Of a DNA stretch of 64,000 nucleotides, positions 1,316 through 48,160 are shown in pieces. Origin of the DNA: the human T2T-CHM13v2.0 reference genome, Homo sapiens; assembly GCF_009914755.1 (NCBI RefSeq), contig NC_060926.1, one strand, 5' to 3'. The position numbers and the translations under genes were made by a program. Below the pieces are notes generated by a model, which had not been told where the DNA came from, ran no database searches, and saw only the letters and a program-made list of their open reading frames with translations. Each line of letters starts with the position of its first letter. Positions within the stretch are counted from its first letter, which is position 1.

Positions 1316-2314
1316 TTAAAAAATCAGTTTTTGTGTTATTTTCACTGTAGTAATATAGCATCAGCTGAACTTGAATTCCAGCCAAGTGCTTGTTCTCCTA
1401 AAGCCTACATCGCAATCTACTGAAATAATTCTTGGCCAACCCAAGCATCAAATAAAGAATAACCTCACCTTCTGGTGCTCAGCCAGCATGGGGATTCTGT
1501 TAAATTGTGGGTGTAGCTGATATTCTTGGTTACCTGGGGATCCTTCTGCTAATTTTGGAACATATTTGGCTTTTCTTAAGCTCTCGGTCTGTGACTTTTT
1601 AAACTATTCAGCTGTATCCTGGCTATGTCCATGTCCTCAGAGAATAAAACAAAATCATAGATCAGGGTATTCTTTTTATTTTGTCCTGGACACTCTCATT
1701 CCCCAGATAAATCACAGGCACAGTCATAAATCTATGGAAAAGAACAGTACAATTTCCACTGGAAAGGCATTCTCTATCTTTTCCACATTGTATCCACTAT
1801 TCACAGTGAATTGCTACTAAGAACATTTTTCTCTCTAGTACTCTAGCTACATAAAACACTTGGTAATATACATACTAGTTTATTGTTCTTCACAGGCAAA
1901 CATAGTGCTACTTTTCCAAGTGTGGGAATAACTCATTCTGAACCACTGGTCCCCCAAAGGCATATCCATATCCCTTACCTTGGCTTTGACAGGAATTATA
2001 GGAGTAATGTAACTATTATTTGGTAAGAAAGCTGATAGTAAACCGTGTCTTCTCCTTATTCCTGACCCTGCGCTTATACTTTGCCTAGCCTCATATTTAA
2101 AGAATACCTTCCACTTTTCTCAAAGCTACAAGTAACAAATATTCAACACTTCACAGAGTCAGGTCCAGCAATCTTCTGCTGAGGTCTAAAACCTTGCAAA
2201 ATTCTGGAAAATGGTATCCAGGTAATATTGTGGTTTTGTTAGTTAAAAGTATATCTGAGTATATGTGTGAATGTGTATGGGTGGGTATGTATGTGTGAGA
2301 CAGATTGGAAGTTT

Positions 2315-2990
2315 CTTCAATAAATATATTACTTTGAGTAATATCAGGAATTGTGCTAGGCACTAGGGTTATAAAATATATCATAAATGAATCGAGTCCT
2401 TAAGGAACTTTGCTTGTTACACTTTTATCAAAGGGTCAGATGGAGAAAAAATGCTTTTACTATGCCATCCTGAGTACTCGGATATAAATGTGCACAGGGT
2501 CCTGTGGGAGCAGAGAGAAGGGTGATTTGGTTTCCAGGGACAAGTTGTCTTGAAGGAGATGGCAGTAGAAGCAATGAATGCATAGGAGTGACCCTGGAGA
2601 AGAAGAATGTGGAGGATGTTGCAGGTAGAGGAAAAGAAAAGCATGAAAAAACATGGTGAGTATGAAAAAACATGAAAATTCATTATTATTAATTAAAGTT
2701 TGGGAAGGGAGTGGTAGAGTTAAGGCTCGACAGATATTATGATGAAGACATTATGTAAGACCATATGGACATAATCGGAAGCTTAAAATTTAACCTGTAG
2801 GTAATGAGGAATCATCAAAAGGCTTTATGGCTAAGTGTGGCAAAACAGTTTGCCATTGAGGCAAGCTGGTCAAGGATGAAATGGGGTTAAGATCCTAGGC
2901 AGGGAACAAATTAGGGAGCTAATGAAAGAGACAGTTTCCAGAAGATATGATGAGGACCTGGACAAGGGTGATGGTAATAGTGAGGACAGG
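2315..2990 (-). mobile_element. L2 3' region, degraded
   Basis: caataaatatattactttgagt...tgtgctaggcactaggg followed by purine-rich L2-like body (gtaggtaatgaggaatcatcaaaaggcttt). Confidence 0.55.
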
Positions 2991-3068
2991 AAGATCCATA
3001 GTGGGGGCACTGTATACACAATGAGATCCTCTCTCCAGGGGCGTCTGAAAGGGATATCCATGTGAGGG

Positions 3069-3780
<712 letters not shown>

Positions 3781-45330: not shown

Positions 45331-45785
45331 AATAGCCTGGAAGAAACTGTTGAGGTCGATGCGTATGATACAATGAATTAAAATACATCAATATTTCTAG
45401 CAAAGAAATACTATCATTTTTACCTATACTTCAATTCATCCCTGATTTCATGAATATCACAATATAGAATTTGGTTATAATTTATTGTTTCATAGCAGTT
45501 AGTTTTTTGAAGCTGTGAAAACTCACAATAATTAGCAGCAAATAATTAATGTGCTTATAAAATACTCTGGGGAAATATGCCCTGACACTTAGTATCCCAA
45601 ATGGCATTACTCTTAAAAGCAATACATGTGACCCTCTGGCTATAATAGTAAAAAATAATTTTTAAAAATGAAGAACAAAGTAAACTCTTTTAAAGACTTA
45701 CTTTCAAATGTCACAATAGCAATAAATTATTGATTTCCACATCTAAAATTAATGTTTTTATTTATTTATTTATTTAGTTTTTTAA

Positions 45786-47455
45786 TTGATCGTTCTTGGA
45801 TGTTTCTCACAGAGGGGGACTTGGCAGGGTCATAGGACAACAGTGGAGGGAAGGTCAGCAGATAAACAAGTGAACAAAGGTCTCTGGTTTTCCTAGGCAG
45901 AGGACCCTGCGGCCTTCCGCAGTGTTTGTGTCCCTGGGTACTTGAGATTAGGGAGTGGTGATGACTCTTAACGAGCATGCTGCCTTCAAGCATCTGTTTA
46001 ACAAAGCACATCTTGCACCGCCCTTAATCCATTTAACCCTGACTGGACACAGCACATGTTTCAGAGAGCACAGGTTTGGGGGTAAGGTCACAGATCAACA
46101 GGATCCCAAGGCAGAAGAATTTTTCTTAGTACAGAACAAAATGAAAAGTCTCCCACGTCTACTTCTTTCCACACAGACAGGGCAACCATCCGATTTCTCA
46201 ATCTTTTCCCCACCTTTCCCCGCTTTCTATTCCACAAAACCGCCATTGTCATCATGGCCCGTTCTCAATGAGCTGTTGGGTACCCCTCCCAGACGGGGTG
46301 GTGGCCGGGCAGAGGGGCTCCTCACTTCCCAGTAGGGGCGGCCGGGCAGAGGCACCCCTCACCTCCCGGACGGGGCGGCCGGGCAGAGGCACCCCTCACC
46401 TCCCGGACGGGGCGGCTGGCCGGGCGGGGGGCTGACCCCCCCCACCTCCCTCCCGGACGGGGCGGCTGGCCGGGAGGGGGGCTGAACCCCCCGCCTCCCT
46501 CCCAGATGGGGCGGCTGGCCTGGCGGGGGCTGACCCCCACCTCCCTCCCAGACGGGGTGGCTGCCGGGCGGAGGGGCTCCTCACTTCTCAGACGGGGCGG
46601 CTGCCGGGCGGAGGGGCTCCTCACTTCTCAGACGGGGCGGTTGCCAGGCGGAGGGTCTCCTCCCTTCTCAGACGGGGCGGCTGGGCAGAGACGCTCCTCA
46701 CCTCCCAGACGGGGTCGCGGCCGGGCAGAGGCGCTCCTTACATCCCAGACAGGGCGGTGGGGCAAAGGCGCTCCCCACATCTCAGAAGATGGGTGGCCGG
46801 GCAGAGACACTCCTCACTTCCTAGATGGGATGGCGGCCGGGAAGAGGTGCTCCTCACTTCCTAGATGGGATGGCGGCCGGGCAGAGACCCTCCTCACTTT
46901 CCAGACTGGGCAGCCAGGCAGAGGGGCTCCTCATGTCCCAGACGATAGGCGGCCAGGCAGAGACGCTCCTCACTTCCCAGACGGGGTGGCGGCCAGGCAG
47001 AGGCTGCACTCTCGGCACTTTGGGAGGCCAAGGCAGGCGGCTGGGAGGTGGAGGTTGTAGCGAGCCAAGATCACGCCACTGCACTCCAGCCTGGGCACCA
47101 TTGAGCACTGAGTGAACCAGACACCGTCTGCAATCCCGGCACCTCGGGAGGCCGAGGCTGGCGGATCACTCGCGGTTAGGAGCTGGAGACCAGCCCAGCC
47201 AACACAGCAAAACCCCGTCTCCACCAAAAAAATACGAAAACCAGTCAGGCGTGGTGGCACGTGCCTGCAATCGCAGGCACTCGGCAGGCTGAGGCAGGAG
47301 ACTCAGGCAGGGAGGTTGCAGTGAGCCGAGATGGCAGCAGTACAGTCCAGCTTCGGCTTGGCATCAGAGGGAGACCGTGGAAAGAGAGGGAGAGGGAGAC
47401 CGTGGGGAGAGGGAGACCGTGGGGAGAGGGAGAGGGAGAGGGAGAGGGAGAGGGG
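45786..47455 (-). mobile_element. Full-length SVA retrotransposon (SVA_D-like)
   Basis: Minus strand reads (CCCTCT)n hexamer (~47371-47455), Alu-like domain (~47011-47370), GC-rich VNTR (~46284-47010) and SINE-R (~45786-46283) ending ...AAGAACGATCAATTAAAAAA. Subfamily call is from recalled diagnostics only. Confidence 0.96.
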
Positions 47456-47587
47456 TAATTTTGTATTTTTAGTAGAGATGGGGTTTCTCCATGTTGATCA
47501 GGACAGTCAAACTCCCAAACTCAGGTGATCCGCCCGCCTCGGGCTCCCAAAGTGCGGGGATTACAGGCATGAGCCACTGTGCCCGGC
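47456..47587 (-). mobile_element. AluSp left arm carried inside the SVA insertion
   Basis: Minus strand GCCGGGCACAGTGGCTCATGCCTGTAATCCC...CAACATGGAGAAACCCC...AAAAATACAAAATTA stops at the A-rich linker, directly before the SVA hexamers. Confidence 0.9.
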
Positions 47588-47824
47588 TAACTCAGGATTT
47601 TTCCCTTTGCTGATGTAGCCTGACAGCAGGAGGGAGCCTATAATAATGAGAAAGGCGCGAATCAAAAACAGCACAGTGGCAAGTGCGATGGCCTTATAAG
47701 GGATCTTAGGAGGGGTTTTCTTAAACTGAAGGTCCATGTAGCCATCGTCTGTGCTGGAGAGCCTTGAATATTTCACTTTACTACTGGGGATTCCAGTAGC
47801 CAGGTTGGTACGGGACGGCATCAT
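47561..47824 (-). CDS. Potential 87-aa TMEM230(1-74)-adaptor/Alu fusion ORF (translation unproven)
   Basis: ATGATG at 47824, open frame through the junction at 47603/47602, then [13 protein letters not shown] and a TAA inside the Alu at 47561. Confidence 0.3.
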
Positions 47825-47937
47825 AACAGGCTGACACAGCGGAGCGCCGCGCCAGGCCGCCCGCACACCCAGAGCTCGCCCACGGTTGGCAGCGCCCAAG
47901 GTTGCACGGCATGGCCCGCTTAAGTGCCACTCAGCCC
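47603..47937 (-). pseudogene. TMEM230: Processed, 3'-truncated TMEM230 copy (5' leader + codons 1-74)
   Basis: Translation [74 protein letters not shown] matches the TMEM230 N-terminus as I recall it (differences I30M, G56R). It is intronless, and the upstream sequence reads [21 protein letters not shown], exon 1 of the long isoform. Confidence 0.93.
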
Positions 47938-48160
47938 TAATGTTTTTATTTATGAAGTAACTTAACTTTTGGTAACATAATATATAACTTCTCTTTCACA
48001 GATTATTTTATTTTTTTAGAATTCTAGAGTTTGAATGAATCCAATTAAGTGTGCTCTGTGTGTCTTCTCAGCCTGCCCTTAGCAAGACTCACAATGTGAG
48101 TTCTGTTCTACTTGCTATCAGGAGAAACCGCACAGGAACCCAAAGAATACTGCCTGCTGG

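What the first reader, a model, noticed from the sequence alone, without database searches (positions are those of the whole stretch)
45750..47953. TMEM230-Alu-SVA chimeric retrotranscript: an SVA that mobilised spliced exons of a host gene
Seen: a single 16-bp TSD (TAATGTTTTTATTTAT) brackets, on the minus strand, a TMEM230 5' leader, codons 1-74, a 15-nt adaptor, an AluSp left arm, a complete SVA and an A-rich tail. It is therefore one L1-mediated insertion, not a pseudogene that happens to neighbour an SVA. Established: SVAs can acquire upstream exons by 5' transduction or exon trapping (e.g. the MAST2-carrying SVA_F1 group). Inference: a transcript from the TMEM230 promoter was spliced, read through an intronic Alu/SVA, polyadenylated at the SVA end and retrotransposed. 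Standard annotation would probably split this into three unrelated features. I cannot tell whether this event has been described before.
Basis: partly seen in the sequence, partly recalled or inferred. Interest (0 to 1): 0.9.

Follow-up and report, generated by a model that had tools for sequence, protein, structure and literature searches.

The report
SVA carrying spliced TMEM230 exons
A jumping-gene element (SVA) in an intron of NRXN1 carries the first three spliced exons of the chromosome-20 gene TMEM230 as a passenger; it is a clean single-copy example of an already known process, not a new kind of element.

Summary
An exact 16-bp target-site duplication brackets one 2,172-bp insert on the minus strand. 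Reading 5' to 3', the insert holds an untemplated G, TMEM230 exons 1-3 joined exactly at the parent's GT-AG introns, 147 nt of chr20 DNA, a full-length SVA and a short A-rich tail.

- The "adaptor + Alu" is not intronic. It lies about 1.55 kb downstream of TMEM230's canonical terminal exon. Exon 3 is spliced to a cryptic AG acceptor there, skipping that exon.
- This genome has no SVA anywhere in chr20:5,075,000-5,162,999, so the source element is missing.

Best reading (0.75): an SVA once sat in the A-rich linker of that chr20 Alu. It defined a new terminal exon for TMEM230-promoter transcripts, and L1 copied one such chimeric RNA into NRXN1. An RT template switch is the main rival.

Both junctions are unique in CHM13, so the copy left no offspring here. 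Divergence from the parent is 6/481. Damert 2018 lists the SINE-R as human SVA_DR with no chimpanzee or gorilla counterpart.

The mechanism class is in print (SVA_F1/MAST2, pt_SVA_D6/STK40, UQCRC1, LINC02916). I found no paper naming this event, but the two 2009 inventories were not held.

The parts
47938..47953 (-). 5' target-site duplication (16 bp)
Evidence: Exact copy of 45750-45765.
47937..47937 (-). Untemplated G at the 5' end of the insert
   Evidence: chr20 has C at this position. Reading it as a cap-derived G on a full-length cDNA rests on established knowledge of L1-made copies.
47840..47936 (-). TMEM230 exon 1 (5' UTR, 97 nt) = chr20:5,152,484-5,152,388
   Evidence: 1 mismatch in 97. 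On chr20 it is followed by gtaagg. The leader is 71% GC with CpG o/e 0.79.
47726..47839 (-). TMEM230 exon 2 (114 nt; ATG at 47824) = chr20:5,148,864-5,148,751
   Evidence: 2 mismatches in 114. The chr20 flanks are ...ctgtag and gtaaat....
47603..47725 (-). TMEM230 exon 3 (123 nt; ends at codon 74) = chr20:5,145,730-5,145,608
   Evidence: 1 mismatch in 123. The chr20 flanks are ...cttccag and gtaagc....
47589..47602 (-).
   Evidence: Contiguous with the Alu on chr20:5,137,721-5,137,575 and preceded there by ...taatccttag.
47456..47588 (-). Left arm of the chr20 Alu, ending in its A-rich linker
   Evidence: The whole 147-nt piece has 2 mismatches to chr20; the other Alus scored are at most 91% identical. 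Rfam Metazoa_SRP at 47473-47587, minus strand, E 1.5e-10. On chr20 the Alu continues with its right arm.
47561..47824 (-). Residual ORF: 74 TMEM230 codons + 13 codons from the adaptor and Alu, then a stop
   Evidence: 87 aa. It has two amino-acid changes versus the parent, at codons 30 and 56. Pfam gives no hit on this part alone.
47384..47455 (-). SVA hexamer (CCCTCT-type) repeats, the SVA 5' end
   Evidence: TRF period 6 at 47384-47454. Relatives align from query nt 2-5 in 9 of 28 alignments.
47005..47383 (-). SVA Alu-like region
   Evidence: 92-97% identical to relatives. Antisense 7SL-type match at 47116-47223, plus strand.
46303..47004 (-). SVA VNTR
   Evidence: TRF arrays with periods 37-50 and 156 across 46303-47004.
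45787..46302 (-). SVA SINE-R
   Evidence: 97-98% identical to 29 other copies. It is the only SINE-R in the window. Damert 2018 lists it as hs_SVA_DR.
45766..45786 (-). ATTAAA poly(A) signal variant (45781-45786) and a short degenerate A-rich tail
   Evidence: The same CAATTAAAAA variant occurs in 3 of the 12 relatives printed. TRF reports a (TTTA)n array at 45757-45784.
45750..45765 (-). 3' target-site duplication (16 bp)

Best explanation
This is a spliced 5' transduction (exon trapping) by an SVA whose source copy is no longer in this genome.

Inferred steps:
1. A full-length SVA_D inserted in sense orientation into the A-rich linker of an Alu about 1.7 kb downstream of TMEM230's terminal exon on chr20.
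2. Transcripts from the TMEM230 promoter ran past the gene's poly(A) site.
3. The SVA's poly(A) signal, together with a cryptic AG acceptor 147 nt upstream of the SVA, defined a new terminal exon. Exon 3 was spliced to it, skipping the normal last exon.
4. The capped chimeric RNA (exons 1-2-3, 14 nt, Alu left arm, SVA, poly(A)) was reverse-transcribed by L1 at a nick in an NRXN1 intron, in the same orientation as NRXN1. This made the 16-bp TSD.
5. The chr20 source allele was never fixed, or was lost.

Shown: the single TSD, the exon joins, the chr20 origin of every non-SVA base, the cryptic acceptor, the full-length SVA, and the absence of any SVA at TMEM230 in this genome.

Inferred: that an SVA ever sat at the chr20 site, and the order of events.
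For: - One exact 16-bp TSD brackets the whole composite.
- There is no poly(A) or second TSD between the Alu piece and the SVA.
- All 481 non-SVA bases map collinearly to chr20 with 6 mismatches. Each block is bounded by AG...GT on chr20, including ...ccttag before the 14-nt piece.
- The insert has an untemplated 5' G.
- The SVA starts at its canonical hexamer end, directly after chr20 sequence.
- The 15 nt before the junction (AAAAATACAAAATTA, preceded by CT) have the form of an L1-endonuclease site plus a TSD of typical length. That is what a sense SVA insertion at that spot would leave on its 5' side (sequence; the rule is established knowledge).
- chr20 today reads as an intact Alu, meaning an empty site.
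- Post-insertion divergence is similar in the two halves: 6/481 in the TMEM230 part, and 5 private plus 5 rare differences in 505 nt of SINE-R.
- There are precedents in print. Polymorphic SVAs carry UQCRC1 and LINC02916 exons 1-2 spliced and then flanking DNA into a full SVA. The same paper infers that a source SVA_D was 'lost or at low frequency', and finds that 16% of transduction-carrying SVAs have no identified source (PMC12593883 abstract and section 9).
Against: - No SVA (VNTR or SINE-R) exists in chr20:5,075,000-5,162,999. The best hit of the SVA query there is 111 bits, to Alus.
- No sibling carries either junction.
- No copy elsewhere of the 676 nt downstream of the chr20 site would mark a 3' transduction from the same source. 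The best non-self match is 86%, to repeats.
- The splice skips a terminal-exon acceptor with a good pyrimidine tract in favour of a weaker one, so the RNA must have been rare.
- The chr2 nick site (TC/ATAAAT) is only a loose match to the L1 endonuclease consensus.
- The A-rich linker makes the 'source TSD' argument weaker than it looks.
Confidence: 0.75

Rival explanations
1. Template switch during L1 reverse transcription. RT copied an ordinary full-length SVA RNA to its 5' end, then jumped onto a TMEM230 read-through or alternatively spliced RNA at the Alu linker and copied it to the cap. No SVA was ever at TMEM230.
For: - The SVA part begins exactly at a full-length SVA 5' end.
- chr20 has no SVA and an intact Alu.
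- There are no siblings.
- A template switch between an SVA RNA and an mRNA is proposed in print for the CKS1BP-SVA copies (PMC12593883 section 9).
Against: - It needs a TMEM230 RNA that uses the cryptic acceptor beyond the terminal exon without an SVA to define that exon.
- The switch point would have to fall by chance 15 nt after an endonuclease-like site.
- No microhomology is visible at the junction.
- In the cited study, 5' transductions far outnumber the single template switch proposed among 543 insertions.
Confidence: 0.12
2. Double splicing. The Alu left arm acted as a cassette exon (AG acceptor, then the GT that follows the linker on chr20) and was spliced to an acceptor lying exactly at the 5' edge of an SVA further downstream.
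For: On chr20 the piece is bounded by ...ttag and gttggg..., so a GT follows the breakpoint.
Against: - The donor (TTA|GTTGGG) matches about 3 of the 9 consensus positions, by my own count against the recalled consensus.
- It needs an AG exactly abutting the first hexamer of an SVA.
- No SVA lies in the 62 kb downstream or anywhere in the 88 kb examined, so this route also needs a lost SVA plus two coincidences.
Confidence: 0.05
3. Two separate insertions. A truncated TMEM230 retrocopy ending at the A-rich Alu linker came first, and an SVA later landed exactly at its 3' end.
For: The linker is A-rich and could prime or attract L1-type insertions.
Against: - Only one TSD pair exists, and it spans both parts.
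- The SVA has no TSD of its own.
- The bases between the Alu piece and the SVA are all templated by chr20.
Confidence: 0.02

Closest known systems
Polymorphic human SVAs with spliced exonic 5' transductions (UQCRC1, LINC02916, MRPS18A; PMC12593883, section 9 read)
   Same: Host-promoter transcript, canonical splicing between the upstream exons, then flanking genomic DNA running into a full SVA, ending at the SVA poly(A) site, with one TSD pair around everything.
   Different: In UQCRC1 and LINC02916 the last exon runs on into its own intron. Here exon 3 is spliced to a cryptic acceptor beyond the gene's terminal exon, three exons with a start codon and 74 codons are carried, and the source SVA is not found.
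SVA_F1 (MAST2 exon 1 fused to SVA_F) and chimpanzee pt_SVA_D6 (STK40 exon 1); Damert 2018, abstract and section 10
   Same: A GC-rich 5' exon of a host gene was acquired by splicing and sits at the 5' end of an SVA moved by L1.
   Different: In those families the acceptor is inside the SVA, so the hexamer and most of the Alu-like region are replaced. Both families amplified (84 and 94 copies). Here the SVA is intact, the acceptor is in flanking DNA, and both junctions are unique in the genome.
Ordinary TMEM230 processed pseudogene (chr11:56,628,245-56,629,700 in this genome)
   Same: An intronless copy of exons 1-3 of the same parent, made by L1.
   Different: The chr11 copy continues into the canonical terminal exon, ends in its own poly(A) and has its own TSD. 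The chr2 copy lacks the terminal exon and ends in an SVA.
Template-switch chimeric retrocopies (CKS1BP-SVA in PMC12593883; the older U6/L1-type chimeras are recalled, not read here)
   Same: Two unrelated RNAs joined in one TSD-flanked insert.
   Different: CKS1BP sits 3' of the SVA and is 5'-truncated with no splice site. Here the host part is 5', full-length to the cap, and enters through a splice acceptor.

Membership tests
SVA 5' transduction | One TSD pair encloses the SVA plus the extra 5' sequence, in the same orientation, with nothing between them | tested here: met
SVA 5' transduction | The extra 5' sequence maps to a single other locus | tested here: met
   chr20, 475 of 481 identical. 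The next best matches for the Alu piece are at most 91%.
SVA 5' transduction | A source SVA lies directly downstream of that locus | tested here: not met
   No SVA in chr20:5,075,000-5,162,999 of CHM13. Other haplotypes and apes could not be searched.
Spliced (exon-trapping) transduction | Breakpoints inside the transduced part coincide with GT-AG introns of the parent gene | tested here: met
   Three joins, all at AG/GT borders on chr20.
L1-mediated retrotransposition | TSD of 7-20 bp, a poly(A) tail and a T-rich nick site | tested here: inconclusive
   The 16-bp TSD and an A-rich tail are present. The tail is short and degenerate, and the nick site (TC/ATAAAT) is a loose match.
SVA (canonical, full length) | Hexamer repeats, Alu-like region, VNTR, SINE-R and a poly(A) signal in order | tested here: met
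SVA_D (subgroup DR) | Diagnostic SINE-R substitutions | not tested
   Taken from Damert 2018 Additional file 2: hg19 chr2:51054763-51055256 = hs_SVA_DR. The match of that coordinate to this element rests on my own estimated offset and on this being the only SINE-R in the window.
SVA_F1 | MAST2 exon 1 replaces the hexamer and most of the Alu-like region | tested here: not met
   The hexamer and Alu-like region are intact. The 5' part maps to chr20, to a gene of the TMEM230/134 family. I did not compare it with MAST2 itself.
TMEM230 processed pseudogene | A copy of the mature mRNA including its 3' end and its own poly(A) | tested here: not met
   The terminal exon (chr20:5,140,353-5,139,274) is absent from the insert.
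Parent gene = member of Pfam TMEM_230_134 (PF05915) | Profile match above the curated cut-off | tested here: met
The chr20 terminal exon scores E 9.8e-13, 48.7 bits against a cut-off of 26.8. The 74 aa carried in the window give no hit on their own.

The most novel reading that the evidence does not exclude
The chr2 copy would be a fossil of a vanished, gene-damaging allele. An SVA just downstream of TMEM230 (a gene discussed in Parkinson's disease) diverted splicing away from the exon that encodes the second half of the protein, and was lost for that reason, or still segregates at low frequency. Separately, the copy places a CpG-rich TMEM230 leader and a sense-oriented SVA inside an NRXN1 intron, apparently only in humans. 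There it could act as an internal promoter or exon trap for NRXN1.
Probability: 0.07. Interest if true: 0.55.

Novelty: new member of a known kind. Interest (0 to 1): 0.3.

Why it matters
The locus is a clean, fully resolved example of how SVAs shuffle exons. It carries three correctly spliced coding exons, a cryptic acceptor outside the gene and an intact SVA, and its source is no longer present. It shows that a retrocopy can record an aberrant splicing event caused by an insertion allele that has since disappeared. It also shows that annotation leaves the TMEM230 part (47603-47937) unmasked and unnamed next to a masked SVA. It does not change what is known about SVA biology, and the copy left no offspring in this genome.

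Tried and rejected
**Slips of my own**
- translated the wrong frame (my slip); one search gives the right frame.
- One search used chr20 exon 3 coordinates that were 3 nt off and produced 84 false mismatches. One search is the corrected count.
- My second notebook entry says '89 codons (74+15)'. The correct figure is 87 (74+13).

**Protein family**
- Pfam on the window's own ORF found nothing. The family name rests on the parent's terminal exon.

**Search for the source or for siblings**
- An SVA at or near TMEM230: none.
- Copies sharing either junction: none.
- 3'-transduction copies of the chr20 site: none.
- SINE-R relatives sharing this copy's rare variants: no relative shares more than a few.

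**Literature**
- 'SVA'+'TMEM230' gave 9 papers. By title and abstract start they are mostly Parkinson's-disease reviews. I opened one, and it only lists the gene.
- 'SVA'+'C20orf30' gave 1 paper, a Parkinson's-disease genetics review.
- 'SVA'+'NRXN1'+'retrotransposon' gave 9 papers. One notes repeated SVA integrations in NRXN1 but not this structure. The second paper I opened had NRXN1 only in its reference list.
- A six-term search was badly designed and gave nothing usable.
- The main texts of PMC6139936, PMC10681720 and PMC12593883 hold neither TMEM230 nor NRXN1.
- The two supplement files of PMC12593883 that are held hold neither name.
- Damert et al. 2009 and Hancks et al. 2009, the two genome-wide inventories of 5'-transduced SVAs, are not held. 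Whether they list this element is open. What I say of their content is recalled, or taken from how later papers cite them.
- Two supplement searches for chr20 coordinates were void because a colon is not matched. A numeric retry found no human chr20 entry near the site in Damert 2018's lists.
- Paper reading closed, so the supplements of PMC10681720 were not seen.
- The search of earlier findings was not open.

- No ape or other human assemblies can be searched with these tools.
Full report
**1. The observation**

Read on the minus strand, the region runs as follows:
- a 16-bp repeat at 47953-47938;
- one G;
- about 480 nt of non-repeat and Alu sequence;
- CCCTCT-type repeats, an Alu-like stretch, a long GC-rich tandem array and a SINE-R-type end;
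- a short A-rich run;
- the same 16-mer at 45765-45750.

The 16-mer occurs exactly twice in the window. A third hit with 2 mismatches lies elsewhere. 0.43 hits were expected, and 0 of 100 shuffles reached 3.

**2. Origin of the 5' part**

I searched the window's own genome (CHM13) with 47456-47937. Of 1957 candidates, 40 were scored, giving 57 matches. Four collinear minus-strand pieces on chr20 match at 98-99%. Exact alignment (which corrects my slip) gives:

| Part | Window | chr20 | Mismatches |
|---|---|---|---|
| Exon 1 | 47936-47840 | 5,152,484-5,152,388 | 1/97 |
| Exon 2 | 47839-47726 | 5,148,864-5,148,751 | 2/114 |
| Exon 3 | 47725-47603 | 5,145,730-5,145,608 | 1/123 |
| Fourth piece | 47602-47456 | 5,137,721-5,137,575 | 2/147 |

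The total is 6/481 (1.25%). On chr20 every block is bounded by AG upstream (except the first) and GT downstream, so the joins are splice joins.

The base before exon 1 is G in the insert and C on chr20. That is what a copied cap leaves on full-length L1-made cDNAs (established knowledge).

The ORF starts at 47824. It keeps 74 parental codons with two amino-acid changes (codons 30 and 56), adds 13 codons and stops inside the Alu.

The parent's terminal exon hits Pfam TMEM_230_134 (PF05915, E 9.8e-13). The 74 residues in the window hit nothing on their own.

**3. The 'adaptor + Alu' is not intronic**

A second retrocopy on chr11 is 97% identical. It has its own TSD and poly(A) and a frameshifted ORF. 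It runs exons 1-2-3 and then 1,080 contiguous nt of chr20:5,140,353-5,139,274. That stretch completes the ORF and ends near an AATAAA. It is therefore the canonical terminal exon.

The fourth piece lies about 1.55 kb beyond its end. It consists of 14 unique nt that follow ...taatccttag on chr20, then the left arm of a sense-oriented Alu up to its A-rich linker. The other Alus scored in the genome match it at 91% or less. Rfam sees a 7SL-type match there at E 1.5e-10, below the gathering score.

So exon 3 was spliced past the terminal exon to a cryptic acceptor in downstream DNA.

**4. The SVA**

- TRF finds the hexamer array at 47384-47454 and VNTR arrays across 46303-47004.
- The first 451 nt (hexamer plus Alu-like) align to 28 of 29 relatives at 92-97%. 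Nine alignments start at query nt 2-5, so the 5' end is the canonical one.
- The SINE-R is 97-98% identical to the 29 relatives aligned. These were the best of the 39 other copies scored out of 1667 candidates.
- The SINE-R differs from the commonest state at 10 of 505 positions; 5 of these are seen in no other aligned copy.
- The 3' end carries a CAATTAAAAA variant of the poly(A) signal, also seen in 3 of the 12 relatives printed. A tail of about 15 nt, degenerate and of AAAT type, follows.
- It is the only SINE-R in the window.

Damert 2018 (PMC6139936; I read the abstract, sections 10 and 12-13 as passages, and Additional file 2 part 20) lists hg19 chr2:51054763-51055256 as hs_SVA_DR. The chimpanzee and gorilla columns of that row are empty, whereas shared elements in the same table carry positions there. 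The match of that coordinate to this element rests on my own estimate of the assembly offset. On that reading the insertion is a human-specific SVA_D.

The 1.25% divergence from the parent, the SINE-R private changes and the decayed tail all point to an old insertion within the human lineage. The counts are too small for a firm date.

**5. The source is missing**

- A BLAST of the SVA part against a contiguous 88 kb (chr20:5,075,000-5,162,999) gives only Alu matches to the Alu-like region. The best is 111 bits, and nothing matches the VNTR or SINE-R.
- On chr20 the Alu is intact across the breakpoint (...AAAATTA|GTTGGGCG...). This is an empty site.
- Both junctions are unique in the genome, with up to 3 mismatches allowed and reversed-pattern controls at 0.
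- The 676 nt downstream of the chr20 site have no second copy. The best non-self match is 86%, to repeats.

So there are no siblings and no 3'-transduction relatives.

**6. Mechanism**

The most economical account is a spliced 5' transduction. A sense SVA landed in the Alu linker downstream of TMEM230. Its poly(A) signal and the nearest usable acceptor 147 nt upstream defined a new terminal exon. A TMEM230-promoter transcript was spliced 1-2-3 to that exon, and L1 copied it into NRXN1.

Points in favour:
- Unspliced chr20 DNA abuts the full-length SVA end directly.
- The 15 nt before the junction are preceded by CT and begin with AAAAA. They have the form and length of the 5' TSD that such an insertion would leave.
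- The acceptor has a reason to be used only if something downstream ends the exon.

In print, the same architecture is described for the UQCRC1 and LINC02916 transductions. Lost or rare source SVAs are inferred there too (PMC12593883 abstract and section 9).

Points against:
- No source has been seen.
- The linker is A-rich in any case.
- The RNA skips a good terminal-exon acceptor, so it must have been rare.

I put this reading at 0.75. The rivals are:
- A template switch of L1 RT from an SVA RNA to a TMEM230 RNA, at 0.12. It has a precedent in CKS1BP-SVA, but it needs the cryptic exon to exist without an SVA, plus a chance landing point.
- A double splice through the GT after the linker, at 0.05. 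The donor is weak, the acceptor would have to sit exactly at an SVA edge, and it also needs a lost SVA.
- Two separate insertions, at 0.02. There is no second TSD or tail.

**7. Comparison with what is known**

The element works like SVA_F1 (MAST2) and chimpanzee pt_SVA_D6 (STK40). In those, a GC-rich first exon was spliced onto an SVA. It is not a member of either: its hexamer and Alu-like region are intact, the acceptor is outside the SVA, and it did not amplify.

It is not an ordinary processed pseudogene, because the mRNA's 3' exon is absent.

It meets the tested criteria of an SVA 5' transduction except the presence of a source SVA, which was tested and not met in this one genome.

**8. 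Novelty**

The kind is well known. Searches for this event by gene name found nothing:
- 'SVA' with 'TMEM230';
- 'SVA' with 'C20orf30';
- 'SVA', 'NRXN1' and 'retrotransposon';
- a mixed six-term search;
- term look-ups in three SVA papers;
- the two held supplement files of PMC12593883.

The two 2009 genome-wide inventories of 5'-transduced reference SVAs could not be read. They may well list it, since the element is in the older reference builds. I therefore file it as a new member of a known kind, with low to moderate interest.

One note on context: the insert lies in the same orientation as NRXN1 (hub annotation). One paper notes repeated SVA integrations in NRXN1 (PMC10063665, passages). 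Any effect on NRXN1 is untested.

Noticed in passing
L023 (G000 chr11:56,626,000-56,632,000), about 2245-3712: An ordinary TMEM230 processed pseudogene. It holds exons 1-3 plus the full terminal exon, is 96-99% identical to chr20, and starts 30 nt upstream of the chr2 copy's start. It ends in poly(A), is flanked by an 18-19 bp TSD with one mismatch, and its ORF is broken by a frameshift.
   Followed up: partly
G000 chr10:23,277,143-23,277,438; chrX:106,376,526-106,376,810; chr12:39,489,499-39,489,731: Three older TMEM230-like retrocopies at 81-82% identity to the exon 1-3 part. The parent gene has therefore been retrocopied repeatedly.
   Followed up: no
window 45781-45786 and loci L036, L037, L038: The SVA ends in CAATTAAAAA (ATTAAA signal) rather than the CAATAAAAA seen in most relatives. 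Three of the 12 relatives printed share this variant, which may mark a sub-lineage.
   Followed up: partly
window 47116-47223 (+): A weak antisense 7SL-type Rfam match (E 0.0014) inside the SVA Alu-like region, as expected from its antisense Alu origin.
   Followed up: no
window 47593-47937: According to the hub's table, NCBI's repeat masking stops at 47592 and no pseudogene is annotated. The TMEM230-derived 345 nt are therefore neither masked nor named in RefSeq for this assembly.
   Followed up: no
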